In this document: in pieces, positions 14,372 to 48,859 of the stretch
How the letters are laid out: the number at the start of each line of letters is the position of its first letter
Numbering within the stretch: the stretch's first letter is position 1
Origin: Thermoanaerobaculia bacterium
Lineage (GTDB): Bacteria; Acidobacteriota; Thermoanaerobaculia; Gp7-AA8
DNA: 64,000 nucleotides
Assembly (NCBI GenBank): GCA_034665065.1
Contig: JAXDGL010000008.1
Coordinates: 319,412 to 383,411 of the forward strand
Direction: 5' to 3'
Notes under the pieces: model-generated
Told to the model about the DNA's origin: nothing
The model's database searches: none
What the model saw: only the letters and a program-made list of their open reading frames with translations
Position numbers and translations under genes: made by a program

Positions 14372-16204
14372 ATGAAGCGTGTTCTCGCTGCGTCTCTGCT
14401 TTTTGCTGTTTCCTCGTTCGCTCAATCCACCCCACAACCCGTAACCATCAACGACCAGATCGTCGTCACTGCCTCGTCGTTACCGGAGACCTTGCAGGTC
14501 ACTCCTGCCGCTGTCAAGGTCATCACGCGTGCCGACATCGCCGCGCGCGCCGCGCGCGATGTCGCCGACGTTCTTCGCGAAGTTCCCGGCCTCGTGCTCG
14601 CGCGCAGCGGCTCGCCCGGCAAAGCGACCTCGCTCTTCACGCGCGGCGCGGCGTCGACGCAGACGCTCGTCCTCTGGAACGGGATCGCGTTGAACAATCC
14701 CTATTTTTCCGGCTACGACTGGGGACGTTTTTCGACCGCCGGCGTCGAACAGATCGAAGTCGTACGCGGACCCTACTCCGCGCTGTACGGTTCAGAAGCG
14801 ATGGCGGGAGTGATCAACGTATTGACCGCGCCGCGCACGAGCGCCGTTCATGGCGACTTCGAGAGCGGTAGCCATGGCTTGCGCAATGCCGCGCTCAACG
14901 CGACGTACGCCGCGGAAACGATCCAGGCCGCCGGCAGCTACGAGCATCGCGCCGATGATGGTTTCAACGCCAATGACGATTTCCGCCAGAACAGCGCCGG
15001 CGCGAACGCGAAATGGATTCCGTCCGACTCCTTTTCCATCGGCGCTTCCGGCCGCCACACTTCCTACGACCTCGGCATCCCCTTCAACACAAATGCCGCA
15101 GGCACCGCACTCGTGCCGAGCCTCGATCGCCGTCAGAGCGGGACGGAGACGCAGATCGCCATTCCGGTTAGTCTGACGCTCGGCCGCTTCATCAGCGATC
15201 TGACGCTCTCCGACAATCATCGCCGCGATGATTTCTCCGATCCTGCCGATCCGTTCACGACATCGACGTCGACCGATGCGAAGACGCGCCGCGCACGCTT
15301 GACGACGCGGTTTGTTACATCGGTAGGTACGATCGTCGCCGGCGGCGAGTACGAGCGCGACCTCGTCAGCGACGTCACCAACTACGGTCCGAATTTTCTC
15401 GCCAAGCGGCGCACCGATCACTCCCTCTTCATCGAAGACCGCTATTCGCATCCCATCAGCCAGACCACGCACTTCGAGCTCAGTGCCGGCGTCCGGCGCG
15501 ACCGCTTCGATACGTTCGGTGGACAGACGTCACCGCGCGTCGCCGCGGCCATCGTTCGAGGAACGACGAAATGGCGCGCCGCCTATGGCACCGGCTTCCG
15601 CGCTCCCTCCCTCGGCGAGTTGTACTACCCGTTCTTCGGTAACGCCGCGCTGAAAGCGGAGTCCAATCGAAGCTATGAGATCGGCTACGACGCGCCGATG
15701 GGACGCGACGGACTCTTCTCGCTGACATACTTCAACAGCCGTTACCGCAATCTCATCACCTTCGATCCCGTCACGTTCATCTCGCAGAACATCGGACGCG
15801 TGCGCGCCGACGGCGTCGAGGTCGGGATCACCAATCAGGTGAGCGCGAACGTCTACACCGCCTTCAGCTACACGTACCTGCATCGCGACGAAGATGAGAA
15901 GACCGGCCTGCGCCTGCTCCGCCGCCCGAAGCACTCCGGATCACTGGCGACCGGCTATCGCAACGGCGCGATCGACACGAACATCGCCATCCTCCGCACC
16001 GGCGAGCGCGACGACTCGCAAGCCGTTCTTCCATTCGGCCGCGTAACCAACAAGTCCTACACGACGATCGACGTCAACGTGCAATACCACATGGCGCACG
16101 TCTCCCCATTCGTAAAGATCGAGAACCTGCGCAACACGGCGTACCAGGAAGTCGTCGGCTACGCATCGCCGGGGCGAAGAGTGATCATCGGCGTGAAGTT
16201 CTAA
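14372..16204 (+). CDS. btuB: TonB-dependent outer-membrane cobalamin receptor
   Basis: Signal peptide, TonB-box/plug region (DQIVVTASS…VVRGPYSALYGSEAMAGVINVLT), C-terminal beta-barrel ending in F. Preceded by the B12 riboswitch. Confidence 0.85.
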   Translation: MKRVLAASLLFAVSSFAQSTPQPVTINDQIVVTASSLPETLQVTPAAVKVITRADIAARAARDVADVLREVPGLVLARSGSPGKATSLFTRGAASTQTLVLWNGIALNNPYFSGYDWGRFSTAGVEQIEVVRGPYSALYGSEAMAGVINVLTAPRTSAVHGDFESGSHGLRNAALNATYAAETIQAAGSYEHRADDGFNANDDFRQNSAGANAKWIPSDSFSIGASGRHTSYDLGIPFNTNAAGTALVPSLDRRQSGTETQIAIPVSLTLGRFISDLTLSDNHRRDDFSDPADPFTTSTSTDAKTRRARLTTRFVTSVGTIVAGGEYERDLVSDVTNYGPNFLAKRRTDHSLFIEDRYSHPISQTTHFELSAGVRRDRFDTFGGQTSPRVAAAIVRGTTKWRAAYGTGFRAPSLGELYYPFFGNAALKAESNRSYEIGYDAPMGRDGLFSLTYFNSRYRNLITFDPVTFISQNIGRVRADGVEVGITNQVSANVYTAFSYTYLHRDEDEKTGLRLLRRPKHSGSLATGYRNGAIDTNIAILRTGERDDSQAVLPFGRVTNKSYTTIDVNVQYHMAHVSPFVKIENLRNTAYQEVVGYASPGRRVIIGVKF

Positions 16205-16270
16205 TCTGCGTTTATCTGCGACATCTGCGGAACAGCTTTTATCCGCAGATGAACGCAGATTTACGCAGAT
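16204..16270. terminator. ATCTGCG-repeat hairpin
   Basis: ATCTGCGtttATCTGCGacATCTGCGG…CCGCAGATgaaCGCAGATttaCGCAGAT directly after the btuB stop. The same motif family recurs at 38241-38300 and 44090-44176. Confidence 0.6.
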
Positions 16271-16532
16271 GGAACCCTGGGAACGCGGGCGTCCCGCCCG
16301 CCGAGTGACATATACGGCCTGCATGAACGCATCGCCGCGGAACGCTGGCGTCTCGCCGGCTGGCCCGGCGCGCGTCCTCGCCGCCGAATGGTGAAGTTTG
16401 CGCCGGCGTTGTGTTACCAGCGAGAGATTCGGCAGCGAGACGCAGCCGATCCAGCCGGCGGGGACGCCAGCGTTCCGCCGCGTAAACTTGCGTTCGCGGT
16501 AGGTGTCACAGCGGGCGAGACGCCCGCGTTCC
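16268..16532. repeat. nested GC-rich palindrome (GGGAACGCGGGCGTCCCGCCCGC family)
   Basis: Outer arms CCCTGGGAACGCGGGCGTCCCGCCCGCC (16272-16300) and GCGGGCGAGACGCCCGCGTTCCCAGG (16505-16530). Inner arms at ~16340-16370 and 16448-16480. The same motif recurs at ~11945. Confidence 0.6.
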
Positions 16533-16678
16533 CAGGCTCACGCTGGCCATGCCATCGCCTCCGCGAGTCCTGGCAACGCGGCCGACAACTTCGTCGATGC
16601 AGGTGCCGGCGATCCCGTCCAGCTCGGGGGCCAGCACGCCGCTGACGCCGTCTCCGCGAGCTGCGCCAGAAGTACTGC

Positions 16679-16861
16679 GTGACACAGCGACAGCTCTCCT
16701 TCGCGACGGGACTCACCGAGGGATACATCAGCAACATGGAGAGAGGCCTGAAGGTACCCAGTCTCACCACGATCCTCCGCCTCGCTGTGGCCCTTGGCTG
16801 CAAGGTAAAGTTAGTGTCGATCTTCGACAAGACCGACCTGCCGGCGATCCTTCCGAGATGA
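16679..16861 (+). CDS. XRE-family HTH fragment (possibly truncated)
   Basis: 60 aa, LSFATGLTEGYISNMERGLKVPSLTTILRLAVALG. This is helices 2-5 of an HTH_3 fold; helix 1 is missing. Lower-GC neighbourhood. Confidence 0.4.
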   Translation: MTQRQLSFATGLTEGYISNMERGLKVPSLTTILRLAVALGCKVKLVSIFDKTDLPAILPR

Positions 16862-16961
16862 TCACTCTTGTTGCCGTTCACCGTCCCACCAATAATGATT
16901 AGCCGCTGCCGAACTCATAGCTGGCTCGCACGACGCGTCGCTTTCCGCGATAATCCATGTT

Positions 16962-17921
16962 GTGATGGACACCCTCGAAGATAAGGCGCGCATCCTGCTG
17001 GAGGCCGCCGAACAGGCCGGCTGGTCCGATGCACCAAGCATTGTTCAGAGAGTTAAAGGCCTTCAACGCGGGATTCCGGCGGAAGATGAATTGTCCGTCA
17101 TCCTACACTGGCTGGGACGCTGCAAACTAGTACACAAGTTAGATCAGACGCAATACCCTGCAACGTCTCGTGCGCAATGGCGAGTTCCCGACCTGCTCGC
17201 TTTTTTCGATTACGGCGGTCATACAGTTCCTGTGCTGATCGAAGTCAAGCGTACGAAGCGAGACAAGCTAAAGTGGAAGCGCCAATATCTTGAGAGCCTC
17301 CAGTCGTATTCCGAAGCCGTCGGAATCCCTCTCTTAATCGCGTGGAAGTTCGCGTCGCTGTGGTGCTTGTTCGAGCCGTGTCACTTCCGGCTCGCTCATA
17401 CCAATCTCCACGCCAGATTCTTAGATGTCATGCCTCACACGTTAATGAGTGTCCTGGCGGGCGACTTTTCCTTTGCCCTTCATCCCGGGGTCGCGTGGCA
17501 TCTGCACTGGCGCAAGTTAAAGAACACCGGTCCCCAAGGCTGGCATCTTCAGGTTGAACGATCGTACGTGACCAACGTGGCTGGTAACGAAGTTCAATCT
17601 GCACCAGGCATTTTGCCGCTCCTCGCGTGCTTTCCAAATTACTCCGAACATAGGCATACACGAACACATATCCATCAAACGTTCACGGTACCAAGTGGTG
17701 GGGCCGCCGAATTCGCCCACCGTTGCCTCAGTCAACTCGTCGCCGTGTTCGGCGGCCGCGATAGACCGAAGAGCTGGCGCGCGTATCTTCAAGGCACGCG
17801 GCTGCCCACGCTCGCCGAAAACTTCCACGACACCGTTCATAACCTCGGTTCCGGATTTGTACATCACCTTTTCCGCGTCAGACCCGTCGCCACTCCCGCG
17901 TTCTTGCCGAGGTCGGGCTAA
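16962..17921 (+). CDS. hypothetical protein, possible PD-(D/E)xK nuclease-like
   Basis: 319 aa. Markedly lower GC than flanks. PDLLAFFDYGG…VLIEVKRTK resembles a D…E-x-K nuclease core. Confidence 0.5.
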   Translation: MMDTLEDKARILLEAAEQAGWSDAPSIVQRVKGLQRGIPAEDELSVILHWLGRCKLVHKLDQTQYPATSRAQWRVPDLLAFFDYGGHTVPVLIEVKRTKRDKLKWKRQYLESLQSYSEAVGIPLLIAWKFASLWCLFEPCHFRLAHTNLHARFLDVMPHTLMSVLAGDFSFALHPGVAWHLHWRKLKNTGPQGWHLQVERSYVTNVAGNEVQSAPGILPLLACFPNYSEHRHTRTHIHQTFTVPSGGAAEFAHRCLSQLVAVFGGRDRPKSWRAYLQGTRLPTLAENFHDTVHNLGSGFVHHLFRVRPVATPAFLPRSG

Positions 17922-18092
17922 CTCCTCGGAGCATCCGGTCGCGTGCTTTCGTTGGCCCGGCGCCCGAGCCGCCTTGCGCAGCAGCCGGCGCGCTACTCTG
18001 CACTGCCGCATGAAGGAACGCGGCGGCTGAGCGAAAGAAACGTTCGCCATGCTAGCCGTTCGCGCACAAATCGTGCTTCGCCATCCCTCGCC

Positions 18093-19871
18093 ATGGCGAA
18101 AAACACCTCTGACTTCCTGATCGAACGTCTCAACGCCTGGGGCGTCAAGCGCGTTTATGGCTATCCCGGCGATGGCATCAACGGCATCCTCGGCGCGCTT
18201 GATCGCGCGGATGGCGCTATCGACTTCGTCCAGGTGCGGCATGAAGAGATGGCGGCGTTCATGGCTTGCGCGCACGCCAAGTTCACCGGGGAAGTGGGCG
18301 TCTGCATCGCCACGTCGGGGCCGGGCGCGATTCATCTGCTCAATGGTTTGTACGATGCCAAGCTCGATCATCAGCCGGTCGTGGCGATCGTCGGGCAATC
18401 GTCGCGGCTGGCGATGGGTGGGAGCTATCAGCAGGAAGTCGATCTGCAAACGCTCTTCAAAGATGTGGCGAGCGAGTATTGCCAGACTGCGATGGCGCCC
18501 GGCGCGGTGCGGCACCTCGTCGATCGCGCCATCCGCATCGCGCTGGCCGAGCGCTCCGTCACCTGCATCATCATTCCCAACGACGTGCAGGAAGAGCCGT
18601 GGGAGGATCCGCCGCACGAGCATTCCACGATTCACTCCGGCGTTGGTTACTCGAGTCCGCGCATCATTCCGGCTAACGAAGACCTGCACCGCGCCGCCGA
18701 TGTTTTGAACGCCGGCAGCAAGGTGGCGATGCTCATCGGCGCCGGGACCTTTCGCGCGATGGACGAAGTGATCGAAGTCGCCGATCTTCTCGGCTGCGGC
18801 GTCGCCAAAGCGCTCCTCGGCAAGGCCGCACTCCCCGATGATCTCCCATTCGTCACCGGATCCATCGGCCTCCTCGGCACGAAGCCGAGTTGGACGATGA
18901 TGTCGGGCTGCGACACGCTGCTGATGGTCGGGTCGAGTTTTCCGTATCCCGAATTCTTGCCCGAGGATGGGAAGGCGCGCGCGGTGCAGATCGACATCGA
19001 CGGACGGCAGCTCTCGATTCGCTATCCGATGGAGGTCAACCTCATCGGCGACAGCAAAGAAACGTTGCGCGCACTCATCCCGCTTCTGCAGCGAAAGAGC
19101 GATCGTAGTTGGCGACAAATGCTTGAAGATGCCATTCGCGAATGGTGGGAAGTGATGGACGCGCGCGCGATGGACGACGCCGTGAATGGCATCAACCCGC
19201 GGCGCGTGTTTCACGAGCTGTCGCGGCGGCTGCCTGACAACTGCATCCTCTCCGCCGACTCCGGCACCACCGCGAGCTGGTACGCGCAACATCTTCGCTT
19301 CCGCCGCGGCATGATGGGATCGCTCTCCGGCAATCTTGCCACGATGGGACCCGGCGTGCCGTACGCGATCGCCGCAAAGTTCGCGTTTCCGGAGCGCGTG
19401 GCCATCGCCTGCTGCGGCGACGGCGCGATGCAGATGAACGGGCTGGCCGAGTTGCTCACGGTGGCGAAGTATTGGAAGGAGTGGTCGAATCCGCGGCTCG
19501 TCGTCTGTGTCCTCAACAACCACGACCTCAACATGGTGACGTGGGAAGAACGCGTACTTGCCGGAGATAAGAAGTTCGAAGCGTCGCAGAACGTGCCGGA
19601 ATTCAACTACGCGAAGTTCGCCGAGTCGATCGGATTGCGCGGCGTTCGTGTCGAAGATCCGGAGCGTGTTGGCGCAGCGTGGGACGAGGCGCTGTCCGCG
19701 GACCGGCCTTGCATCCTCGATTTCCGCACCGATCCGGACATTCCTCCGCTGCCGCCGCACATCACGTTCGAGCAGGCGAAGAATTTTGCATCAGCAGTTC
19801 TTCATGACCCCAGCCGCAGCGCGATCATTCGCAATGCGATGAAGCAGTTGATGGATTCGTTCAGTAGTTAG
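18093..19871 (+). CDS. poxB: pyruvate oxidase / pyruvate dehydrogenase (quinone)-like TPP enzyme
   Basis: Strong collinear similarity to E. coli PoxB from memory (N-terminal GVKRVYGYPGDGINGI, GPGAIHLLNGLYDA; TPP-binding GDGAMQMNG; C-terminal EQAKNF). The ORF track's upstream extension (17943) is not supported. Confidence 0.85.
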   Translation: MAKNTSDFLIERLNAWGVKRVYGYPGDGINGILGALDRADGAIDFVQVRHEEMAAFMACAHAKFTGEVGVCIATSGPGAIHLLNGLYDAKLDHQPVVAIVGQSSRLAMGGSYQQEVDLQTLFKDVASEYCQTAMAPGAVRHLVDRAIRIALAERSVTCIIIPNDVQEEPWEDPPHEHSTIHSGVGYSSPRIIPANEDLHRAADVLNAGSKVAMLIGAGTFRAMDEVIEVADLLGCGVAKALLGKAALPDDLPFVTGSIGLLGTKPSWTMMSGCDTLLMVGSSFPYPEFLPEDGKARAVQIDIDGRQLSIRYPMEVNLIGDSKETLRALIPLLQRKSDRSWRQMLEDAIREWWEVMDARAMDDAVNGINPRRVFHELSRRLPDNCILSADSGTTASWYAQHLRFRRGMMGSLSGNLATMGPGVPYAIAAKFAFPERVAIACCGDGAMQMNGLAELLTVAKYWKEWSNPRLVVCVLNNHDLNMVTWEERVLAGDKKFEASQNVPEFNYAKFAESIGLRGVRVEDPERVGAAWDEALSADRPCILDFRTDPDIPPLPPHITFEQAKNFASAVLHDPSRSAIIRNAMKQLMDSFSS

Positions 19872-33522: not shown

Positions 33523-33620
33523 TGATGACTGTCCGCGCGAAGGATAGGTTCAAAACGATGGCGCGCGTTAGTCCATCGCATTAATAGACGGACGCGTTGT
33601 TGGGTTTTCACACATCCAAA

Positions 33621-33804
33621 CTGTCATCCTGAGTCGCCGAAGGACACGAAGTGCCGGAGGACGATCGAAGGACCCCCTGCTTCGCCGCGACGGTCTTGTT
33701 GCGTCGCGTTTAGAGCAATTGGGGGGTCCTTCGACCGACCTTCGCCGCGATGCCTGCCGGTGCATGAGCAGAGTGGAGGCGCGGCTCGGCTGCTCAGGAT
33801 GACA
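33621..33804. repeat. MITE-like palindromic element, family B copy 2
   Basis: CTGTCATCCTGAGTCGCCG…GATCGAAGGACCCCC…GGGGGGTCCTTCGACC…GCTCAGGATGACAG. Collinear with the copy at 25557-25748. Confidence 0.8.
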
Positions 33805-33869
33805 GTGTCGAATGGCCGCGCTCTTGGTGGAACACCTCGCCTCTCCCTCCCTGTTCTAAACTCCGACTC

Positions 33870-36002
33870 ATGTCCATTCACGCGCGTGTCGACGCGCTCC
33901 TCGGGCGGCTCGCTTCCACGCCGCAGTTTCCCACGCAGGGTCAGACGATTTTCGTCGACCTCGAGCGTCAGGAAGTGCGGCGCGCCTACATCCCCCTCCG
34001 CGTCGTCGAATCGCTCCTCGGCGGTCGCGGCGTGAACATGTACCTCCTCCACAACCTGCTCGATGAGACGCTCGATCCGATTCATCCTCACATTCCGCTG
34101 ATCTTCGGCACCGGCATCCTGACCTCGATGGTGCCGTCGGCGTCGCGCGGCAATGTGACGTCGTGGTCTCCTGAGTCGCGCGTCCTGATGGATTCGAACG
34201 CCGGCGATTACTTCCCGTCGTTCATGAAGCTCAATGCGATCGATCACCTCGTGCTCTACGGCAAAGCTGCGAAGTGGACGCTGCTTCATTTCGAGGGGAA
34301 CGAGCCGAAGTTCATCGACGCCGCGCCGTGGGTCGGTCTCGACAACATCGATCTTCGCGAACGGATCGCCGCAGATTTTCACGGGGTCGAAGGGAAGGAC
34401 TACGGACTCGCTGCGATCACGACCGCGGGCGAGAATCTCGTCCTCTGCTCCGGCATCATGGCCGGTCCGAAAGCCATCTACGCGCGCGGCGGTCCGGGCG
34501 CAAAGATGGGCGGACTGAATCTAAAAGCAGTTTTGATTCAGGGGCGTGCCGCCGATCTCACCACCGCGCGTCCGCACAAACTGCGCAATCGCGACGTCGC
34601 GCTCAAGCTCCTCTCGACATCCGTCGTCAAGAACGCGCTGAAGAAACGCGGTACGCCATTCCTCTACAAACCCTCGCGCATGCTCGGCGCGATGGGAACG
34701 AAGAACAACCAGGAGACGACGTGGACCGATAAGCTCGACGCCGAGAACATCGACCCGTACCGTCCCGGGATGGAGGGTTGCTTCGCCTGTCCGGTGAATT
34801 GCCGTCCGCTGAATGACATGAGTGGGGGTGGGGAGTGGGGAGTGGGGAGTGGGGAGTCTTCTGTGCGGGAGTCGGGAGTCGGGAGTCGGGAGTCGGAGAG
34901 AGAAACCTTCGTCCACTCAGTGCGTGAACAGAAAGCAGAACTAGAGAGCGGAGAGCGTGAGAATGTTGACGCGCTGCATTCCGCTCCGACCCTCGACTCC
35001 CGAAAACCGACTCCCGCGCCAGACAAATACATCAAAGGCGACGGCCCCGAGTACGTCACGCTCGGCAAGTTCGGACCGAACATCGGCATCAGCGAAGTCA
35101 CGCAGGTTCTTCGTCTCAACAACATCTGTAACGACCTCGGGCTCGATACCGCGTCCGCTGGATCTGCGATCGCATGGGCGATGGAGCTGTATCAGCGTGG
35201 CATCATCACAATCGAGCAGACGAAGCTCGATTTGACGTGGGGCAACTACGACGTGATCGAGCAGTTGTTGTTCATGATCGCGAAACGCGAGGGGATCGGT
35301 GACGCCATCGCTGATTCGTCGCAGGCCGTGGCCAACGGCAAGTATCCCGCTGAAGCGCTCGACTATCTGATGGCGGTGAAAGGACTGACACAGAGCGATC
35401 CTCACGACGCGCGCATTCTCAAGGCGTTCGCGCTCGGACTCGCCGTTGCCACGCGCGGGATGGATCATCTTCGCAACCGCGTCACGCTGGAGATCAACGC
35501 CAAAATCAACGACTCGCCGGATTTCAAAGCGGAGTTGTATGGCGGCGCCGTGTCCGCGGAGCCGAACAGCTACGAAGGCAAAGAGATCGCTGTCCGCCGC
35601 TGCGAGAACATCTACGCGGTCGGCGATTCGGTGGGCATGTGCCGATTCACGACGAAGCTCTTCAACTCGCCGTCGTTGCCGGGCTATCCGGAGTTCGTCG
35701 ATCAGGTGGCGAACGTCACCGGCATCGAGCTGACGAACGAACAGATCGACCACATCGGATTAAACGTCATGGGCGTCGAGCGTCTCATCAATCAGAAGAT
35801 CGGCGTGACGCGCGCGGATGACACGCTGCCGAAACGCTGGTTCGAAGAAGCAATCGGGGTCGGTCCGTACAAGGGCGAGAAAATCGATCGCGGCGAGTTC
35901 GACAAGATGCTCTCGCGCTTTTACGAGATCTCGAACCTGACCGCGGAAGGCCTGCCGAAGCCGGAATGGCGCGAAGAGCTCGAAGAGGTTCTGGCGTCAT
36001 GA
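33870..36002 (+). CDS. aor: aldehyde:ferredoxin oxidoreductase (tungsten/molybdopterin AOR family) with ~70-aa in-frame repeat-derived insertion
   Basis: AOR N-terminal domain. 4Fe-4S Cys motif GCFACPVNC. AOR-like C-terminal domain. 710 aa, versus ~600-aa AORs recalled from memory. Confidence 0.85.
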   Translation: MSIHARVDALLGRLASTPQFPTQGQTIFVDLERQEVRRAYIPLRVVESLLGGRGVNMYLLHNLLDETLDPIHPHIPLIFGTGILTSMVPSASRGNVTSWSPESRVLMDSNAGDYFPSFMKLNAIDHLVLYGKAAKWTLLHFEGNEPKFIDAAPWVGLDNIDLRERIAADFHGVEGKDYGLAAITTAGENLVLCSGIMAGPKAIYARGGPGAKMGGLNLKAVLIQGRAADLTTARPHKLRNRDVALKLLSTSVVKNALKKRGTPFLYKPSRMLGAMGTKNNQETTWTDKLDAENIDPYRPGMEGCFACPVNCRPLNDMSGGGEWGVGSGESSVRESGVGSRESERETFVHSVREQKAELESGERENVDALHSAPTLDSRKPTPAPDKYIKGDGPEYVTLGKFGPNIGISEVTQVLRLNNICNDLGLDTASAGSAIAWAMELYQRGIITIEQTKLDLTWGNYDVIEQLLFMIAKREGIGDAIADSSQAVANGKYPAEALDYLMAVKGLTQSDPHDARILKAFALGLAVATRGMDHLRNRVTLEINAKINDSPDFKAELYGGAVSAEPNSYEGKEIAVRRCENIYAVGDSVGMCRFTTKLFNSPSLPGYPEFVDQVANVTGIELTNEQIDHIGLNVMGVERLINQKIGVTRADDTLPKRWFEEAIGVGPYKGEKIDRGEFDKMLSRFYEISNLTAEGLPKPEWREELEEVLAS
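34822..35028. repeat. intragenic heptamer-array palindromic element (GGGGAGT / CGGGAGT arrays)
   Basis: GGGGAGT x4, CGGGAGT x3, then inverted CTCCGACCCTCGACTCCCGAAAACCGACTCCCGCG. Translated as MSGGGEWGVGSGESSVRESGVGSRESERETFVHSVREQKAELESGERENVDALHSAPTLDSRKPTPAP inside the AOR. Confidence 0.75.
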
Positions 36003-36226
36003 TCACTGTCCGACTGCCGGAGCCGCTTCGCGAAGGCCGCAGCGAAGTGATGACGATGAATGCCGCATCCATCGACGAGATCATCGCCCGGCTCGATCTT
36101 GCCGGCGACCGCGATGAGCTCTTCAACTTTGCCGTGAATGGCGAGCTGATTCTGCACGGCGAGAAAAACGTCGTGCTGAAGAACGGTGACGAAGTGGAGA
36201 TCGTCGTTGCCTTCGCAGGCGGGTAA
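35999..36226 (+). CDS. moaD: MoaD/ThiS-family sulfur-carrier protein
   Basis: 75 aa ending …VVAFAGG (C-terminal Gly-Gly). Start overlaps the AOR stop (ATGA). Confidence 0.75.
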   Translation: MITVRLPEPLREGRSEVMTMNAASIDEIIARLDLAGDRDELFNFAVNGELILHGEKNVVLKNGDEVEIVVAFAGG

Positions 36227-36237
36227 CCTCGCTCCGC

Positions 36238-36270
36238 GCCCTCCGCGTCTCCGCGTGAAACGGTTTTGGC
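36238..36270. repeat. family C repeat copy
   Basis: CCCTCCGCGTCTCCGCGTGAAACGGTTTTGG. Confidence 0.7.
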
Positions 36271-36304
36271 CTGAACCGCCTCGCCCCAGATAAACTTCAC
36301 AGCG

Positions 36305-37561
36305 ATGACCACCTTCCAGACTCCACGCGACGGCGAGCGGATGATCGCGGTCGAAGAGGCGCAGGAGCGCGTGCTCGCGGAAGTGGAGACGCTGAGCGTT
36401 GATGACGTGGCGTTCATCGACGCTCATGGCCGCGTGCTCCGCGAAGATGTTCACGCCACGTACGACATTCCGCAGAAGGACAACACGGCAATGGATGGCT
36501 ACGCGGTGCGCGCGGACGACATCGCGGCGGCGACGGCCGACGCGCCGGTGTCGCTCAAAGTCATCGAAGATCTCCCCGCAGGAACTGTGGCCACGCAAAT
36601 CGTCAAACCGGGCACCGCCATTCGCATCATGACCGGCGCGCTGATGCCTGACGGCGCCGACACGGTCGCGCACGTCGAGATCACCGATGCAGGCAGCGAT
36701 GTCGTCCGAGTCTTTCGTCCGATGCGGCGTGGCGTGAACATCCGCAAGCGCGGCGAGGACATGCACACCGGCGATGTCGTGCTGTGCGACGGCACGCCGA
36801 TCCACGCAGCGGAAGTCGGCGTCCTGGCGAGCGTGCAGAGGGCGAGTGTGCGCGTGGGGCGTCGTCCGACCGTAGCGATTCTTTCGACGGGCGACGAGAT
36901 CATCGACATCGGCGACGCCGTCACTCCGGGCAAAGTCGTGAATTCGAACTCGTACTCGCTCGCGGCGCTGGCGCGGGAGGCGGGCGCGATTCCCCGAATG
37001 ATCGGCATCGTGCGCGACACGCGCGAGGCCACCATCGCCGCCATCGAGTCGGCGCTCGAATCGGATTTCATCATCTCGTCGGGCGGCGTTTCCGTCGGTG
37101 CCTACGACTTCGTGAAAGACGCGCTCGACGCACTCGGCGCCGAGACGAAGTTCTGGCAGGTGGCGATGAAGCCCGGCAAGCCGGTCGTGCTCTCGCGGCT
37201 TCGCGGCCGGCTCTACTTCGGCCTGCCCGGAAATCCGGTCTCCTGCATGGTCTCCTTTCTTTTGTTCATCGCGCCGGCGATTCGGAAGGCGATGGGGCAG
37301 AAGGAGAATCTGCTTCCGCCGATTGTGCGGACGCGCGTGCTGGCATCGCTGAAATCGCGCGGCGACCGGCGCAACTACATGCGCGTACGCGTCGCCGCGC
37401 GTGACGGCGAGCTCGTCGCGCAGCCGATGACGTCACAAGGCTCCGGCGTCTCGACATCGATGGTGCAGGCAAACGGCCTCGTGATCGTGGAGACCGGGGT
37501 CACCGCAATCGAGGCCGGAACGCTCGTGCCGACGGTGCTGGTCGGACCGGTACAGTCGTAG
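36305..37561 (+). CDS. moeA: molybdopterin molybdotransferase MoeA
   Basis: MoeA N-terminal, MPT-binding (GD…ILSTGDEI…SGGVSVGAYD) and C-terminal domains. Start may be the internal Met at 36341. Confidence 0.85.
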   Translation: MTTFQTPRDGERMIAVEEAQERVLAEVETLSVDDVAFIDAHGRVLREDVHATYDIPQKDNTAMDGYAVRADDIAAATADAPVSLKVIEDLPAGTVATQIVKPGTAIRIMTGALMPDGADTVAHVEITDAGSDVVRVFRPMRRGVNIRKRGEDMHTGDVVLCDGTPIHAAEVGVLASVQRASVRVGRRPTVAILSTGDEIIDIGDAVTPGKVVNSNSYSLAALAREAGAIPRMIGIVRDTREATIAAIESALESDFIISSGGVSVGAYDFVKDALDALGAETKFWQVAMKPGKPVVLSRLRGRLYFGLPGNPVSCMVSFLLFIAPAIRKAMGQKENLLPPIVRTRVLASLKSRGDRRNYMRVRVAARDGELVAQPMTSQGSGVSTSMVQANGLVIVETGVTAIEAGTLVPTVLVGPVQS

Positions 37562-37714
37562 GATCCCGCGATAACGGGCAACTTCGACGATCACGTTTGG
37601 GAGCTCTCGATCACGACAGCACTCGCATAGACAGCACTCCCTGTATGGCTGCGAACTGAAGGCTACGCTGATCGGGTGTGGCGTTTTTTTTGAGAAAACA
37701 GCGTGGAGCGATTA

Positions 37715-38128
37715 TCAATCGCGGCGATTAGCGAAAAGCGCGGGTGCGACCACCCACGCGATCAGCAGCACGCAACGCAATCCTCCGTGATCGGGCGAGC
37801 CGAGGAGCGCGAACCATTGATGCCCGGAGCTCATTCTCATGATGATCTCTGTGGCGATCCCGAACAGGAGCCATGCTGTCCCCGTAAGAAGGGCGTGATC
37901 GAGTGTGGCCTCGTGTGTGGCAAATCGAATGTACGTTGCTGCGGCTGCAACGATCGCAAGTACCTCGAGGACGACGCATGCCACCGGCATGGTCGCGCTC
38001 GTCGACTGGTGGATGCTGGCGACCAGCACTGCTGCGATGATCCAGAATACGAATACGAGCACCGCCCTCAGTGCCGCATTCAGTTTTCGCGGTGTAACGC
38101 GCGCCTCCGAGCGAGTCAAGGTCGTCAT
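37715..38128 (-). CDS. membrane protein (hypothetical)
   Basis: Internal Met start MTTLTRSE… gives ~137 aa with 3-4 TM helices. The ORF-track N-terminal extension runs through the island inverted repeat and is unlikely. Confidence 0.5.
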   Translation of the reverse strand: MTTLTRSEARVTPRKLNAALRAVLVFVFWIIAAVLVASIHQSTSATMPVACVVLEVLAIVAAAATYIRFATHEATLDHALLTGTAWLLFGIATEIIMRMSSGHQWFALLGSPDHGGLRCVLLIAWVVAPALFANRRD

Positions 38129-38240
38129 ACCGGCCTCCTGACGTACGCAACAGAAGGCGTACCGGGGCCTCGTAAGGAAGTGCGAAGCAGGGTACGGATA
38201 ACTCGTTAAGAGTGGGTTAAGAGTTTCGAAAGGGGCGCGC

Positions 38241-38334
38241 GTCCGCAGATTACGCAGATGTTCGCAGATGAAGATTGATTCCAATCTGCGTCAATCTGGG
38301 TAGTGGTCTAGTTTGACCGAAGGTTTGTAACATG
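38241..38334. repeat. left terminal inverted repeat of the 5.9-kb lower-GC island
   Basis: CCGCAGATTACGCAGATGTTCGCAGATGA…CTGGGTAGTGGTCTAGTTTGAccgaaggtTTGTAACATG. The reverse-complement partner lies at 44038-44176. Confidence 0.7.
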
Positions 38335-38622
38335 TTTGCGGGTACGCCATCACTACCTCAATTCACGGGAAAGCTCTTCGTTCGCGAGTCTGACGAACGT
38401 CTCGACTACGACACTCCGCAGTTGATCCGCGACGCGCTGCACGATCTGGCCTTCGATGTCGTGGTAGAGCCCCTGCTGTTCTTCGTCATCGCCCCGGCCA
38501 GTTCATGATTCCGGTTTCAGAGCAGGCGTCAGTCATCGCTCCAACATTTGCCGAAAGACGAAACCATTCGTCCGCGAATCTCTCGCCGTGCTCGCGCGTG
38601 ATCACATCGACGATATCCAAGC

Positions 38623-38883
38623 TCATTCCGTCTCCCTGCTCTCCAGAACGGCGACATAGACCGCTTCGTCAGCTCGCGACAGCTCAAACAGTTCCACGAT
38701 GTAGACGGGACGAGAGAGCATTTCGGAAGCGGTTTCCGCAAGGGCGATCATGAGGCGGCGTGTTGGCTCACACTCACCCCCGCGCAACCGCCGAAACTGC
38801 GAAGGGCTGATCCCGGCGCGCTTCGCGAACACAGAACCCCTGACACCACACGCCCGCATGAAACGCATCGAACCGCGTCGCAC
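38623..38883 (-). CDS. XRE-like HTH regulator (divergent from 39004 gene)
   Basis: VFAKRAGISPSQFRRLRGGECEPTRRLMIALAE resembles an HTH_3 helix-turn-helix. Confidence 0.45.
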   Translation of the reverse strand: MRRGSMRFMRACGVRGSVFAKRAGISPSQFRRLRGGECEPTRRLMIALAETASEMLSRPVYIVELFELSRADEAVYVAVLESRETE

Positions 38884-39003
38884 GGCGTTCCTTTATGCGG
38901 CGCTCCCGGCGCTCTGGCATCGGCCACGTTTTCCTTTGCACACCGATAGCATGTCACACTCATAGCATGACTAGCAACAGGAACATGGACGCACACTCAA
39001 AGC

Positions 39004-39231
39004 ATGGCTGTTCGTCCGGTCGAGAAGTTCGCCGCGCACCTTCGCGAGTTGCGCGAGAAGCGTGGACTCTCGCAGACGAAGCTCGCGGAGCTGGCCGGGC
39101 TCAATCGGAACTACGTCGGCGACGTGGAACGCGGTCGCCGGAATCCATGCTTCGATAACATCATCAAGCTGGCCGAGGGGTTGAACGTCTCGCCATCGGA
39201 ACTCTTCCGGCCATTTGACAAACGGCGGTAG
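39004..39231 (+). CDS. XRE-family HTH transcriptional regulator
   Basis: LRELREKRGLSQTKLAELAGLNRNYVGDVERGRRNPCFDNIIKLAEGLNVSPSELF is the canonical HTH_3. Confidence 0.8.
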   Translation: MAVRPVEKFAAHLRELREKRGLSQTKLAELAGLNRNYVGDVERGRRNPCFDNIIKLAEGLNVSPSELFRPFDKRR

Positions 39232-39249
39232 CGAACCGATACTCCCTTT

Positions 39250-39516
39250 ATGCCAAAGGGGTCAAGCAAGCGCCCGAAGAAGCGCGAGGACGAAGCGCAG
39301 GCCGCCGTCCGCGTCATGAACACGATCGCCGCGAGGTCTGAGGCGGACGCGCTCGATGATGCACCGGTTGAGATCACTGACGCCATGCGCGCCGCTGCCG
39401 CCGCGTTCGGGCGCATGGGCGGAAAGATTGGCGGACCGGCGCGAGCGGCGAGCATGAGCGCGAAGCGGCGCTCCGAGATCGCCAAGAAAGCTGCGCGTGC
39501 GCGTTGGCAAAGGTAG
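39250..39516 (+). CDS. hypothetical small basic protein
   Basis: 88 aa. Lys/Arg-rich ends. 18 nt downstream of the XRE gene. Confidence 0.4.
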   Translation: MPKGSSKRPKKREDEAQAAVRVMNTIAARSEADALDDAPVEITDAMRAAAAAFGRMGGKIGGPARAASMSAKRRSEIAKKAARARWQR

Positions 39517-39656
39517 CCCGCTCGGATCAAGGCAAGCGAGGTTACCGGAGTCGTTAGGGTGAGTGCTAAAGTGTAGGCGAGCAAAGACACGAAAACCGGC
39601 TGGCAGGTCGGTCGTGCGAAGTTACGTGAGGGGCAATCGAGCGTGGAGATCTTGCC

Positions 39657-40247
39657 ATGCCGATGTTTGCTTGTCAAAGCAGTCCAGGATCATCAAGTCA
39701 ACCGATTGCAGCGTACGGGTTCCCAATGCCGCTCGCCGAAAGTGATATCAAAGAGCTGTTGAGCTTTACCTACATGCGGGCCATCGCCGCAAGGGCTGGG
39801 TTCCGCGTCAATCATCCGTACCCTGACCGCCAACATGATGACTTGCAAATCGACTCGTGCGGTCGATTAGAGCCGGACGGCTGGAGTGCAGCGCGCATCG
39901 ATTTTCAGGTCCGAGCAACAACCACGATCCCCCTTGCTGATGGCGGCGAATTCGGATTCCAGGTCGAAAGGTCTCTGTATGATGACCTTCGGGATGATAG
40001 GCGCTGCGCACCTTTGTTGCTGGCTGTCTTCATAATGCCGCCGAACCCCGAGCAATGGCTGAGCGCTACTGCCGCCGAACTGATCACACGCCACTGCGCC
40101 TATTGGGGCAACATTAAGGGCGCGCCGCCTATCGAGGCAGAGTCTCGCGTCCTACACGTCAAACGCGCCAACACACTCACGGCGGCTTCGCTAACCGATT
40201 TGATGAGGATCGCCGGACGGCGGCAGGAGATTGGCGATGCTTTATAA
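39657..40247 (+). CDS. DUF4365-like hypothetical protein
   Basis: 196 aa. Lower-GC codon usage. Loose resemblance to the DUF4365 family (recalled). Confidence 0.5.
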   Translation: MPMFACQSSPGSSSQPIAAYGFPMPLAESDIKELLSFTYMRAIAARAGFRVNHPYPDRQHDDLQIDSCGRLEPDGWSAARIDFQVRATTTIPLADGGEFGFQVERSLYDDLRDDRRCAPLLLAVFIMPPNPEQWLSATAAELITRHCAYWGNIKGAPPIEAESRVLHVKRANTLTAASLTDLMRIAGRRQEIGDAL

Positions 40248-47683: not shown

Positions 47684-47721
47684 TAGTTCCGCTCCCGGGG
47701 ACGGGCGAATGCCCGTCCTTT

Positions 47722-47862
47722 GGGGTGGGGAGTGGGGGTGAAGTTAGAAGGGTGAAGAGTGAAGAGTGAAGAGTGAAGGGTGAAGAGTGAAAGTAAGACA
47801 ACTAATCCCTCTTCACACTTCACACTTCACTCTTCACACTTCACCCCTACTCCTCACCCCCA
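47722..47862. repeat. heptamer-array palindrome (GGGGAGT / GTGAAGA arrays)
   Basis: GGGGTGGGGAGTGGGGGTGAAG…GTGAAGA x5 … inverted TCTTCAC x4 …CCCCTACTCCTCACCCCCAC. Lies between the precursor gene and the MNIO gene. Confidence 0.75.
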
Positions 47863-47869
47863 CAAAACC

Positions 47870-48859
47870 ATGAATCGATTCCAACTTCCTGACCTTGGTA
47901 TCGGCATCGGCCTGAGGACCGTGCATTACGCGCACATCCTCGACAACGATCCGGCCATCGACTGGTTCGAAGCGCTCTCTGAGAACTATCTCGATACTGG
48001 TGGCCGTCCGCGTTACGTGCTCGAGAAAATCGCGGAGCGCTATCCGATCGTTCTGCACGGCGTGTCGATGTCGATCGGCGGAACCGATCCGCTCGACTTC
48101 GACTACCTTCGCAAACTGAAAGCGCTGGCACGTTCCGTCAATGCGCGCTGGATCTCCGATCATCTCTGCTGGACTGGAGTCAGCGGCCGCAACGTACACG
48201 ATCTGCTACCGATGCCTTACAACGAAGAGTCGCTTCGTCACACCGCGGAGCGCGTGCGGACCGTTTCCGAATTTCTGGAGACGCCGCTCGTCGTCGAGAA
48301 TCCATCGTCGTACGTCGAGTTCAAAGCATCGACGATGACGGAGTGGGATTTTCTCGCCGCGCTGGGCGAGCAGAGTGATTGCGGCTTGCTCCTCGACGTG
48401 AACAACATCTACGTCAGCTCGTTCAATCACAGTTTCGATCCGAATACCTACGTCGACGCGATCCCCGCCGACCGCGTCGTACAGGTTCATCTCGCCGGCC
48501 ACGCCAATCACGGTACGCACATCATCGACACGCACGACAACTTCGTGATCGACGAGGTGTGGCAGCTCTACGCACGCGCTAGCGCACGCATCGGCAATGT
48601 CTCGACGCTGATGGAGTGGGATGCGGATATCCCCGATTTCGAGACGGTGCATGCCGAGGCGCGGAAGGCGGAGGCGTTTCGTGAATCGGGGAGTGGGGGG
48701 TGGGGAGTGGGGAGTGGGAGAAAAGGCGATACGCTCCAAGCTGCGATCGCCGAGTCGCAAGTAGAAGACTCAGCGCCCGCCGAAACTCCGGTCCTCTTAT
48801 CCCCGAAACCCGACCACCGACATGCGACTCCCGCAACAGAGGCTCCCCTTGCCATCTGA
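47870..48859 (+). CDS. DUF692 / MNIO family enzyme (MbnB/BufB-like) with repeat-derived C-terminal extension
   Basis: MNRFQLPDLGIGIGLRTVHYAHIL…DWFE…ENY xylose-isomerase-like TIM-barrel signature of DUF692. The C-terminal ~55 aa (…ESGSGGWGVGSG…SPKPDHRHATPATEAP) is encoded by a GGGGAGT-family repeat (48686-48850). Confidence 0.85.
   Translation: MNRFQLPDLGIGIGLRTVHYAHILDNDPAIDWFEALSENYLDTGGRPRYVLEKIAERYPIVLHGVSMSIGGTDPLDFDYLRKLKALARSVNARWISDHLCWTGVSGRNVHDLLPMPYNEESLRHTAERVRTVSEFLETPLVVENPSSYVEFKASTMTEWDFLAALGEQSDCGLLLDVNNIYVSSFNHSFDPNTYVDAIPADRVVQVHLAGHANHGTHIIDTHDNFVIDEVWQLYARASARIGNVSTLMEWDADIPDFETVHAEARKAEAFRESGSGGWGVGSGRKGDTLQAAIAESQVEDSAPAETPVLLSPKPDHRHATPATEAPLAI

What the first reader, a model, noticed from the sequence alone, without database searches (positions are those of the whole stretch)
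34822..35028. In-frame insertion of a heptamer-array palindromic element inside the aldehyde:ferredoxin oxidoreductase gene, next to the Fe-S cysteine motif
The AOR ORF is ~100 aa longer than typical (710 aa). The extra segment is exactly a repeat element: GGGGAGT x4 and CGGGAGT x3, followed by their inverted complement. It is translated as a Gly/Ser/Glu-rich ~70-aa loop (GEWGVGSGESS…SRKPTPAP) immediately after the conserved CxxCxxxC motif. This resembles Rickettsia palindromic elements and Correia-like insertions that survive in-frame inside ORFs.
Basis: seen in the sequence. Interest (0 to 1): 0.75.

Follow-up and report, generated by a model that had tools for sequence, protein, structure and literature searches.

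The report
Repeat hairpin translated inside enzyme gene
A 201-base hairpin made of 7-base repeats sits in frame inside a conserved tungsten/molybdenum oxidoreductase gene of a soil acidobacterium and is translated as a floppy surface loop; it is a new example of a known kind of "junk DNA inside a working gene".

Summary
The AOR-family gene (33870-36002, 710 aa) carries a 201-nt in-frame element (34821-35021) six residues after the CxxCxxxC motif. The element has GGGGAGT x4 (plus one GGGGGT) and CGGGAGT x4, not x3. Only the CGGGAGT array has an inverted partner (34 nt, 85%).

About 100 orthologues from Thermoanaerobaculia have 8 residues at this site. Thirty have an insert of 11-67 residues, and the window's is the longest. 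The typical insert is a ~100-nt hairpin with four heptamers per arm. The arms co-vary (GGGGAGT/ACxCCCC or CGGGAGT/ACxCCCG). All 15 DNA copies have lengths divisible by 3 with no stop codon. Flank dN/dS is 0.02-0.06. The insert is the only long low-confidence stretch attributable to the element in an otherwise good AOR model.

The element belongs to a dispersed G-rich heptamer hairpin family, which is one of many period-7 array hairpins in these genomes. Its units are stop-free in every frame.

Best reading: it is passenger repeat DNA tolerated in a permissive loop. It evolves by slippage, fold-back template switching and allele exchange.

Filled alleles are strongly non-monophyletic, and whether that reflects recombination or repeated gain is unresolved. 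It is an analogue of Rickettsia palindromic elements built from Xanthomonas/Nostoc-type heptamer arrays.

The parts
33870..36002 (+). AOR-family tungsto/molybdopterin oxidoreductase gene, 710 aa. It is intact and under purifying selection.
   Evidence: ORF. Pfam AFOR_N + AFOR_C. 1AOR at E = 1.6e-65. AF2 model pTM 0.85, with Foldseek 1aor_A TM 0.86. dN/dS is 0.043 against L161. C304, C307, C311 and C591 are invariant in alignment A5.
34779..34802 (+). Codons for the C304-x2-C307-x3-C311 [4Fe-4S] ligand motif (CFACPVNC).
   Evidence: Translation. It aligns to the CxxCxxxC motif of 1AOR (CYACPIGC).
34821..35021 (+). The whole inserted element: 201 nt = 67 codons, replacing the 8-codon loop found in empty alleles.
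   Evidence: Filled/empty alignments. Length is divisible by 3 with no in-frame stop.
34824..34857 (+). Outer G-type array: GGGGGT + GGGGAGT x4. It has no complementary partner and forms a canonical G-quadruplex motif on the sense strand.
   Evidence: It is unpaired in the MFE fold. G4 motif scan. It is shared with the closest relative L161.
34858..34865 (+). Spacer CTTCTGTG between the two arrays. It is specific to the window.
   Evidence: no match elsewhere.
34866..34898 (+). Inner C-type 5' arm: CGGGAGT x4 + CGGAG. It is absent from L161. It is 100% identical over 33 nt to the C-type AOR allele of L086 and 97% identical to L007.
   Evidence: (complementarity score 21 against 8 for the outer arm).
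34899..34983 (+). Enlarged loop. About 60 nt (34900-34959) have no counterpart in any relative or elsewhere. The right end (GCGCTGCATTCCGC) matches the L007 loop. It encodes ERETFVHSVREQKAELESGERENVDALHSA.
   Evidence: A low-confidence helix is predicted at residues 341-359.
34984..35017 (+). 3' arm (CTCCGACCCTCGACTCCCGAAAACCGACTCCCGC), complementary to the inner C-type arm. It is translated as APTLDSRKPTPA.
   Evidence: the repeat finder pair I1, 34 nt at 85%. Fold.
35022..35030 (+). GAC-AAA-TAC (D-K-Y) directly 3' of the element. Lys is found here in all 30 filled alleles, whereas the nearest empty alleles have Gln (CAA). The A extends the basal stem (TGTCGG/CCGACA) in the relatives.
48688..48845 (+). 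A second member of the same G-type family: GGGGAGT-type x4, GGGAGAAAAGG...GCTCC, and a distant GACTCCCG 3' arm. It is read in the same peptide phase (GSGGWGVGSG...KPDHRHATPA) as the C-terminal tail of the bufferin maturase BufB, and it overlaps the start of the next gene.
   Evidence: present in L161 with a loop 60 nt shorter; the MNIO_BufB profile ends at residue 268 of 329.
47726..47860 (+). Nested array hairpin between the bufA-like gene and bufB. The outer units are GGGGAGT-like and the inner arms are GAAGAGT x6 / CTTCACA x5.

Best explanation
What it is. The feature is a real, translated, in-frame insertion of a heptamer-array quasi-palindrome. It lies in a hypervariable loop of an AOR-family oxidoreductase, six residues after the CxxCxxxC cluster motif.

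Which family it belongs to. The element is a member of a dispersed hairpin family with the layout [G/C]GGGAGT array - GGAGAAAG...GCTCC - complementary array. That family is one of many period-7 array hairpins that occupy gene ends in soil Thermoanaerobaculia genomes.

Why it persists inside this gene. First, the loop tolerates anything from 5 to 67 residues. Second, the units GGGGAGT, CGGGAGT, ACTCCCC and ACTCCCG contain no stop codon in any frame. Because 7 is not a multiple of 3, every frame yields the same Gly/Ser/Glu-rich peptide from the 5' arm and the same Thr/Pro-rich peptide from the 3' arm. These peptides are low-complexity and disordered.

What selection does. Selection acts only to keep the length a multiple of three. 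The DNA itself turns over quickly by three processes: repeat slippage, fold-back (quasi-palindrome) template switching that re-matches the two arms, and exchange of short segments between AOR alleles.

The window copy. It is a composite. An L161-like G-type 5' arm is joined to an L007/L086-like C-type hairpin, with about 60 nt of extra loop.

Shown versus inferred. Shown: the insertion, its translation, the permissive loop, family membership, fast turnover and arm covariation. Inferred: neutrality (passenger status) and the template-switch and allele-exchange mechanisms.
For: Indel and boundaries.

Gene function and selection: dN/dS is 0.017-0.063 in filled and empty lineages alike. All four cluster cysteines are invariant. 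The model is a confident AOR fold in which the insert residues 320-382 have pLDDT below 50.

Frame: all 15 DNA copies have lengths of 60-201 nt that are multiples of 3, with no in-frame stop. The ~100-nt copies are mostly open in all three sense frames. Most other heptamer units in these genomes contain stops.

Permissive loop: the span is 30, 33, 36-95 or 71 residues in different clades.

Dispersed family: about 14 non-AOR copies occur in 411 kb, nearly all within about 30 codons of an ORF end. Arrays of period 7 number 32, against 2 of period 8 and 0 of periods 4-6 and 9-12, in 362 kb.

No consistent need for the structure: folding z-scores run from -8.6 (L082) to -1.1 (L161). Half-elements L009, L086 and L088 have lost the 3' arm (z = +0.25), and P0063 is an 11-aa remnant. 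Sense and antisense RNA energies show no bias.

Arm co-evolution: the complementarity matrix separates G/G and C/C alleles. Unit-position-1 pairs are C-G in 5-6 sequences and G-C in 3, and only L161 breaks them. L001 (G/G) and L081 (C/C) differ by about 6% in the flanks. L082 has changed A to G in three 5' units to match its 3' arm.

Fast turnover: inserts are 15-24% diverged where the backbone is 1.4% diverged. The window gained 96 nt since its split from L161.

Allele exchange: P0015 is identical to L082 over alignment columns 261-527, including the insert, but has 36 differences outside that stretch.

Literature: template switching homogenises inverted-repeat arms (PMC7202029, PMC8604942).
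Against: No experiment shows that the protein is made or that the loop is neutral.

Filled alleles occur in at least 6 well-supported lineages interleaved with empty ones. The flanks follow the clade tree right up to the junction. If recombination did this, the exchanged tracts must be very short, which is awkward for ordinary homologous exchange.

Persistence of a strong hairpin and a G4 motif on the sense strand over dS of at least 0.3-0.9 could indicate selection rather than neutrality.

The mosaic P0015 could be a metagenome assembly chimera.

The window-specific 96 nt are seen in this assembly only.

I could not compute solvent exposure or the distance to the cluster from the model.
Confidence: 0.72

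Rival explanations
1. Recurrent, site-specific insertion. The hairpin family is mobile, in a REPIN-like or IS200/605-like manner or through templated insertion at a small pre-existing palindrome (TGTCG...CGACA). It has entered the same AOR loop independently in six or more lineages.
For: Filled alleles are non-monophyletic with 93-100% bootstrap support, on the whole gene and on each half (protein tree and distances). Flank haplotypes follow the clade tree up to about 4 nt on the left and about 10-25 nt on the right of the element, so there is no visible conversion tract. The family is dispersed and shares a loop design. Other array-hairpin families match non-syntenic places in L161. Crown-clade empty sites carry a 5-bp inverted repeat flanking the 8 codons.
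Against: There is no target-site duplication, because the element replaces about 18-24 nt. The loops of elements in different lineages are homologous: L002, L004, L010 and L081 share GAGAAAGA..GGTTTTGCTCC, and P0013 and P0004 encode similar peptides. All 30 filled alleles share Lys after the element even where their nearest empty relatives have Gln, which fits one allele moving. Insert similarity tracks backbone distance. One clear mosaic exists. No transposase was identified, though none was searched for.
Confidence: 0.2
2. The insert is functional. Either the disordered Gly/Ser/Glu-Pro/Thr loop beside the [4Fe-4S] cluster tunes docking of the electron-transfer partner, or the mRNA hairpin or G-quadruplex pauses ribosomes just after the cluster-binding motif emerges, helping cofactor insertion.
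For: The position is immediately after the cluster motif. A distant subfamily has a conserved structured 41-aa segment in the same loop. The element has been retained over dS of at least 0.3. Arm complementarity is restored repeatedly. Four-unit arrays equal four G-tracts, as in the G4-forming arrays of Xanthomonas and Nostoc (PMC4692102).
Against: Most close orthologues lack the insert, with equally low dN/dS. The peptide sequence is unconstrained and evolves more than 10 times faster than the backbone. The hairpin decays (L161) or is half-deleted (L009, L086, L088) without loss of the gene. There is no strand bias in RNA stability. Length varies from 11 to 67 aa.
Confidence: 0.1
3. Contingency locus. 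Slippage by one heptamer unit shifts the frame and switches the enzyme off and on (phase variation).
For: A 7-nt unit changes the frame with every unit gained or lost. Heptamer tracts drive phase variation in some pathogens (background in PMC4692102 and PMC4679880).
Against: All 19 close loci and all 30 proteins are in frame. The arrays have only about 4 units. Length differences between alleles are multiples of 3, not of 7.
Confidence: 0.03
4. Artefact, pseudogene, or an ancestral segment lost elsewhere.
For: Repeats are prone to assembly error. The window-specific 96 nt are unique to this assembly. A 41-aa segment exists at this site in distant homologues.
Against: The insert is present in many independent assemblies, including a complete chromosome. 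The frame is intact and dN/dS is about 0.04. The spacer and the 60-nt loop are novel sequence that chimeric joining would not create. The insert is not homologous to the 41-aa segment, and all deeper clades are empty.
Confidence: 0.02

Closest known systems
Rickettsia palindromic elements (RPE; Ogata et al. 2000, as summarised in PMC10969869)
   Same: Both are multi-copy palindromic elements of about 100-150 bp. Both are found in frame inside unrelated housekeeping genes, are translated as an extra peptide, and are tolerated at positions compatible with the fold.
   Different: This element is in a free-living soil acidobacterium, not an obligate intracellular alphaproteobacterium. Its arms are tandem heptamer arrays rather than unique sequence. 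Its peptide is low-complexity and unconserved, whereas RPEs encode conserved peptides. Nearly all other copies sit at gene ends, whereas about half of the RPEs of some families are intragenic. No sequence relationship was tested or is expected.
G-rich heptamer simple-sequence repeats: Xanthomonas GGGAATC and Nostoc/Anabaena GGGGA(C/T)T, also called STRR (PMC4692102; Mrazek 2007 as cited in PMC4679880)
   Same: The unit is 7 nt beginning with G3-4. Arrays typically have four units, giving a G4 motif. Arrays often occur as a convergent pair that can form a stem-loop. They are dispersed, lie mostly within about 50 bp of gene ends, and are rare on the coding strand inside ORFs.
   Different: The unit sequence (GGGGAGT/CGGGAGT) and the phylum differ. 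Here the paired arrangement has a conserved loop design and behaves as one element. This copy is deep inside an ORF on the coding strand and is translated. Arm covariation and filled/empty polymorphism are documented here.
MITEs and REP/REPIN elements (Correia, ERIC, BOX, REP; PMC10969869, PMC3733652, PMC3116915)
   Same: They are small, non-coding, hairpin-forming, dispersed repeats, mostly intergenic, that occasionally make in-frame fusions.
   Different: There is no target-site duplication at the one site with filled and empty alleles. There is no GTAG/CGTC tag. No parent transposase was identified. The arms are internally periodic.
Quasi-palindrome template-switch mutagenesis (PMC7202029, PMC8604942)
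   Same: It is a process that makes imperfect inverted repeats more perfect and produces multi-nucleotide, complementary changes in both arms. It matches the G/G to C/C arm switches, the A to G corrections in L082 and the new matching arm in the window.
   Different: It is a mutational mechanism, not an element family. Its action here is inferred from sequence patterns only.

Membership tests
AOR family (tungsto/molybdopterin aldehyde:ferredoxin oxidoreductase-like) | AFOR_N and AFOR_C domains and the overall fold | tested here: met
   PF02730 at 2.2e-40 and PF01314 at 1.2e-92. 1AOR at E = 1.6e-65. Foldseek 1aor_A TM 0.86.
AOR family (tungsto/molybdopterin aldehyde:ferredoxin oxidoreductase-like) | Four Cys ligands of the [4Fe-4S] cluster (CxxCxxxC plus a distal Cys) | tested here: met
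   C304, C307, C311 and C591 are invariant in 93 sequences. They align to the 1AOR motifs CYACPIGC and GLCLF.
AOR family (tungsto/molybdopterin aldehyde:ferredoxin oxidoreductase-like) | Aldehyde-oxidising activity and the canonical active-site Glu (Glu313 in the P. furiosus enzyme, from my own knowledge) | tested here: not met
   The aligned position is Val (GPEYVT against GPEYES). NCBIfam finds no equivalog (PRK09849 scores 75 bits against a cut-off of 868). The substrate is unknown, so 'AOR-family' is safer than 'AOR'.
Rickettsia palindromic elements (RPE) | Palindromic element of about 100-150 bp present in many copies | tested here: met
   Hairpins of 87-201 nt. About 14 further copies in 411 kb.
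Rickettsia palindromic elements (RPE) | In-frame insertion in an ORF, translated, at a structurally permissive place | tested here: met
   Translation is inferred from frame conservation, not observed.
Rickettsia palindromic elements (RPE) | Sequence belongs to one of the RPE families and encodes their conserved peptide | not tested
   No RPE library was available. The peptide here is unconserved and the host is unrelated, so this is an analogue and not a member.
MITE | Target-site duplication flanking the element | tested here: not met
   Filled/empty alignments show replacement of about 18-24 nt and no duplication.
MITE | Terminal inverted repeats related to a parent insertion sequence | tested here: inconclusive
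   The whole arms are inverted repeats. No parent IS was searched for or seen.
REP / REPIN | Short palindrome with a conserved GTAG or CGTC tag, and an associated RAYT gene | tested here: not met
   No GTAG or CGTC tag at the ends of the 12 elements listed. A RAYT gene was not searched for.
G-rich heptamer SSR / STRR-type arrays (Xanthomonas, Nostoc) | Tandem 7-nt units starting with G3-4, typically four units | tested here: met
   four units in nearly every AOR allele. Period 7 accounts for 32 of 34 arrays.
G-rich heptamer SSR / STRR-type arrays (Xanthomonas, Nostoc) | Frequent convergent (array plus inverted array) pairs, dispersed, mostly at gene ends | tested here: met
G-rich heptamer SSR / STRR-type arrays (Xanthomonas, Nostoc) | G-quadruplex formation | not testable with these tools
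   Only the motif is shown. All plus-strand G4 motifs in the window lie in these elements.
Phase-variable contingency locus | Repeat-number variants that shift the frame among close strains | tested here: not met
   All loci are in frame, and lengths differ by multiples of 3.
Intein, intron or translational bypass | Segment removed from the RNA or protein, so its frame need not be kept | tested here: not met
   15 of 15 lengths are divisible by 3 with no stops. No Rfam family matches.

The most novel reading that the evidence does not exclude
The period-7 array hairpins may be products of a dedicated, still unknown mechanism. This could be a structure-specific or site-specific insertion and copying system, for example fold-back-primed synthesis or a hairpin-recognising HUH or other enzyme. 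Such a mechanism would build matched heptamer arrays on both arms and could re-enter the same target repeatedly. The AOR loop would then be a recurrent target, gained six or more times. That would explain three things at once: the strict period of 7, the diversity of units, and the strongly non-monophyletic filled alleles with no visible conversion tracts.
Probability: 0.15. Interest if true: 0.85.

Novelty: new variant of a known kind. Interest (0 to 1): 0.55.

Why it matters
It extends the phenomenon of selfish or passenger palindromic DNA inside working genes from Rickettsia to a free-living soil phylum. It also gives a simple rule for which repeats can survive in ORFs: units with no stop codon in any frame, inserted in a permissive loop.

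The site offers a natural series for studying how quasi-palindromes evolve. The states seen are empty, near-perfect hairpin, decayed hairpin, half-element, remnant and composite. The series shows concerted arm changes and also shows how disordered loops arise in enzymes.

The strongly supported interleaving of filled and empty alleles is unexplained. It makes the question of recombination versus targeted re-insertion directly testable.

Practically, annotators should expect low-complexity GEWGVGS / TPDSRLP peptides in Thermoanaerobaculia proteins to be translated repeat DNA, not domains.

Tried and rejected
1. The first AlphaFold job used 46 sequences that were more than 82% identical. It gave mean pLDDT 44 and was discarded. 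A second job with 93 sequences worked.
2. Rfam showed no family at the element, only far-sub-threshold plant miRNA hairpin hits.
3. A sliding-window search for a conversion tract around the insert was uninformative. In L082/L005 against L008 the pair is about 6% diverged throughout. In sub-clade A the apparent peak was an alignment artefact from insert edges. After masking, the flanks simply follow the clade tree.
4. A donor search for the window-specific 60-nt loop in the window and all 163 loci found nothing.
5. Homology of the insert to the 41-aa segment of the MoaD-AOR fusion subfamily was rejected.
6. An RNA-level reading (a functional antisense or sense hairpin) was rejected. The periodic A.C mismatch would be a G.U pair on the other strand, but sense and antisense energies show no consistent bias.
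7. A literature search for heptamer hairpins in Acidobacteria returned nothing relevant. A search for the AOR ferredoxin-docking surface was also unproductive.
9. No search for a RAYT or IS200-type transposase was made.
Full report
**1. Observation**

ORF 33870..36002 (+) encodes a 710-aa protein with AFOR_N and AFOR_C domains. It is related to P. furiosus AOR (1AOR, E = 1.6e-65).

The sequence runs as follows after codon M317 (ATG, 34818-34820):
- AGT, then GGGGGT and GGGGAGT x4 (34824-34857)
- the spacer CTTCTGTG
- CGGGAGT x4 plus CGGAG (34866-34898)
- an 85-nt loop
- a 3' arm (34984-35017) that is 85% complementary over 34 nt to the CGGGAGT arm
- CA, then GAC-AAA-TAC (D-K-Y)

The double-unit pattern occurs 10 times in the window against 0.12 expected. 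As single-stranded DNA the region folds at -45 kcal/mol against -32.3 +/- 3.2 for shuffles (z = -3.98). The outer GGGGAGT block is left unpaired.

It is wrong in three details. There are four CGGGAGT units, not three. Only that array has an inverted partner. The element explains +59 aa, not about 100.

**2. It is an insertion**

Among the 120 best homologues, all from Thermoanaerobaculia or Acidobacteriota MAGs, about 100 have exactly 36 residues from CFACPVNC to GPEYVT (...NDMSNDLNVRHDKYVKG...). Fifteen have 39-65 residues, and the window has 95. Genome and metagenome loci add DNA for 14 filled and 6 empty alleles.

The typical filled allele is a 99-105-nt near-perfect hairpin. It has four [G/C]GGGAGT units, a loop beginning CGGAGAAAG and ending GCTCC, and four complementary units. 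DNA-fold z-scores are -5.3 (L004), -3.6 (L007) and -8.6 (L082). The empty site scores -0.2.

Other acidobacterial clades have 30-33 residues at this span. A distant subfamily at 57-61% identity consists of 774-aa MoaD/ThiS-AOR fusions. It has a conserved, non-repetitive 41-aa segment at the same loop, which is not homologous to the insert. The loop is therefore intrinsically permissive, and the insert is lineage-specific.

**3. The gene works and the insert is translated**

dN/dS of the flanks is 0.017-0.063 in filled and empty lineages alike. The four cluster cysteines are invariant.

All 15 DNA copies are 60-201 nt long, are multiples of 3, and have no in-frame stop. This excludes splicing, bypass or pseudogenisation.

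With a diverse alignment, AlphaFold gives pTM 0.85 and a complete AOR fold (1aor_A TM 0.86). Residues 320-382, exactly the insert, have pLDDT below 50. By alignment, the insert falls between residues 306 and 307 of 1AOR, just after cluster ligand Cys295. That this region lies near the protein surface is from my own knowledge of the 1AOR structure and was not computed here.

**4. Why this element can live in an ORF**

Because 7 mod 3 = 1, a heptamer array reads the same 7-aa period in all three frames.
- GGGGAGT gives GEWGVGS.
- CGGGAGT gives RESGVGS.
- ACTCCCC gives TPHSPLP.
- ACTCCCG gives TPDSRLP.

None of these contains a stop. Most other units in these genomes (AATGTTG, GAAGAGT, CAGTGAT, GACGAAT, AATTGAC, TTCTGAA) do contain one. 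Only the total length has to be a multiple of 3.

**5. The element class**

In 362 kb of Thermoanaerobaculia DNA, arrays of three or more units have period 7 in 32 cases and period 8 in 2 cases. No arrays of period 4-6 or 9-12 were found. Most have an inverted partner within 350 nt, and the units are very diverse.

The G/C-type family has about 14 non-AOR copies in 411 kb, almost all within about 30 codons of an ORF end. Examples:
- A hairpin at the 5' end of a kinase gene in L006 and L009.
- The window's 48688-48845 copy, read in the same peptide phase as a roughly 60-aa tail of the bufferin maturase BufB.
- A probable in-frame copy in a type IIG restriction-modification enzyme in L004.

The architecture matches the G-rich heptamer arrays of Xanthomonas (GGGAATC) and Nostoc (GGGGA(C/T)T). 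[quoted passage not shown] Heptamers are the commonest long SSR class in many bacterial genomes (PMC4679880). All plus-strand G4 motifs in the window lie in these elements.

**6. Evolutionary dynamics**

(a) *Fast turnover.* Inserts are 15-24% diverged at 1.4% backbone divergence. Overall, insert similarity tracks backbone distance (Spearman -0.31, p = 5e-10).

(b) *States.* The alleles seen are near-perfect hairpins (L082), a decayed hairpin (L161, z = -1.1), half-elements lacking the 3' arm (L009, L086, L088), a remnant (P0063), expanded loops (L001, WIN) and a composite (WIN).

(c) *Arm covariation.* G-type 5' arms go with ACxCCCC 3' arms, and C-type arms go with ACxCCCG. The three unit-position-1 pairs are C-G in 5-6 sequences and G-C in 3, and only L161 breaks them. 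Sister alleles L001 (G/G) and L081 (C/C) are about 6% apart in the flanks. L082 has A-to-G changes in three 5' units that remove the periodic mismatch.

(d) *The window allele.* Relative to L161, its closest relative (dS 0.43), it has 96 extra nt. These are the spacer, a CGGGAGT x4-CGGAGA block identical to the L086 allele, and about 60 nt of orphan loop. The new arm matches the 3' arm with a score of 21, against 8 for the old arm. These concerted, complementary, multi-nucleotide changes are what quasi-palindrome template switching produces (PMC7202029, PMC8604942). This is an inference.

**7. An unresolved pattern**

On insert-masked trees, the filled alleles are not monophyletic. DNA bootstraps, given as whole gene / 5' half / 3' half:
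- (L002, L004, L163-empty): 100/98/97
- (L001, L081, L162-empty): 100/93/99
- (L005, L082, L008-empty): 100/100/100
- (L006, L086, L089-empty): 100 (whole gene)
- Monophyly of the filled alleles: 0

Deeper clades are all empty. Empty alleles of the window's sub-clade share their own motif (HDxSVxHDQY), so they are vertically inherited.

Flank polymorphisms follow the clade tree up to the junction. Only the site and the next codon (Lys in all 30 filled alleles, Gln in the nearby empty ones) track the filled/empty state.

Evidence for one origin plus allele exchange:
- Loops are homologous across lineages.
- Lys is universal in filled alleles.
- P0015 is a mosaic. It is identical to L082 over about 267 residues including the insert, with 36 differences outside. 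It could also be an assembly chimera.

Evidence for repeated gain:
- No conversion tract is visible.
- The family is dispersed.

The Lys codon adds one base pair to the basal stem. It could therefore be a by-product of palindrome extension rather than a linkage marker. I favour exchange at roughly 3:1 but cannot settle the question.

**8. Comparison and verdict**

Functionally this works like a Rickettsia palindromic element: repeat DNA translated in a tolerant part of an essential-type enzyme (PMC10969869). It is not a member of that family. It also fails the MITE test for target-site duplication and the REP tag test. Structurally it belongs with the G-rich heptamer SSR pairs known from Xanthomonas and Nostoc.

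I rate it a new variant of a known kind. It is real, well supported and moderately interesting. It leaves one open question (recurrent gain versus recombination) and one open mechanism (why period 7, and how both arms acquire matched arrays).

Noticed in passing
window 7255-7525, 8409-8600, 13300-13384, 27134-27180, 36232-36256, 47726-47860, 56835-56976; also L001-L016 and L081-L089: These genomes are full of 'array plus inverted array' hairpins whose arms are tandem 7-nt units (rarely 8-nt) of many different sequences. In 362 kb, arrays of three or more units have period 7 (32 cases) or period 8 (2 cases) and no other period from 4 to 12. Why the period is 7, and how both arms get matched arrays, is unexplained.
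   Followed up: partly
window 47321-49661: A bufferin-type RiPP operon. It has a BufA2-like Cys-rich precursor (weak hit), the MNIO maturase BufB (365 bits) and a DUF2063/HvfC_N-type partner. Array hairpins sit in both intergenic junctions: 47726-47860 after the precursor gene, and 48688-48845 as a translated BufB tail that overlaps the next start codon.
   Followed up: partly
L004 17810-17920 (minus strand), ORF 14989..18225: A type IIG restriction-modification enzyme (1078 aa) appears to carry a C-type element in frame at about residues 100-145 (SRGSGVGAGS...STPDSRPTAP). Profile matches start only at about residue 182, so its intragenic status is probable but not proven.
   Followed up: partly
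window 33600-33830 versus L001/L081/L002/L004 about 9700-9990: The TetR-AOR intergenic region holds a nested hairpin in four relatives: outer arms AATTGAC/GTCAATT and inner arms ACGCGGAG/CTCCGCGT. In the window it holds unrelated sequence, including a palindromic GTCATCCTGAG...-type element (33621-33683). That element matches L161 4541-4706 in both orientations at a non-syntenic place.
   Followed up: partly
window 7260-7520: A composite repeat (GCGCTTCGCGC plus GTTGTCG units and their complement) matches L161 7568-7741 at 89-94% identity at a non-syntenic locus, so this family is dispersed across genomes.
   Followed up: no
window 56835-56976 and 57028-57121: An octamer-array hairpin (GCGGTTGC x8 / CAGCAACC x8) lies about 50 nt upstream of a tRNA-Sec gene (Rfam 71 bits).
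   Followed up: no
window 14168-14340: A cobalamin riboswitch (Rfam 113 bits).
   Followed up: no
window 33870-37561; L019-L079; P0121-P0240: This AOR clade has Val where P. furiosus AOR has the active-site Glu (GPEYVT against GPEYES), and it has no NCBIfam equivalog. The gene is followed by MoaD/ThiS-like and MoeA genes. A related subfamily in Proteobacteria, Desulfuromonadales and Thermoplasmatota is a 774-aa MoaD/ThiS-AOR fusion with a conserved 41-aa segment in the same loop.
   Followed up: partly
P0015 versus L082 (alignment columns 261-527): P0015 is a mosaic AOR allele. Its central ~267 residues, including the insert, are identical to L082, with 20 and 16 differences on either side. 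This is either recombination between lineages or a metagenome assembly chimera.
   Followed up: partly
window 60739-61666: A 237-nt tandem repeat with 3.9 copies at 83% identity, probably a repeated protein domain.
   Followed up: no
window 37686-44121 versus L161 13756-16267: Synteny with the closest relative is interrupted. About 6.4 kb in the window, including a tRNA at 42719-42792, replaces about 2.5 kb in L161.
   Followed up: no
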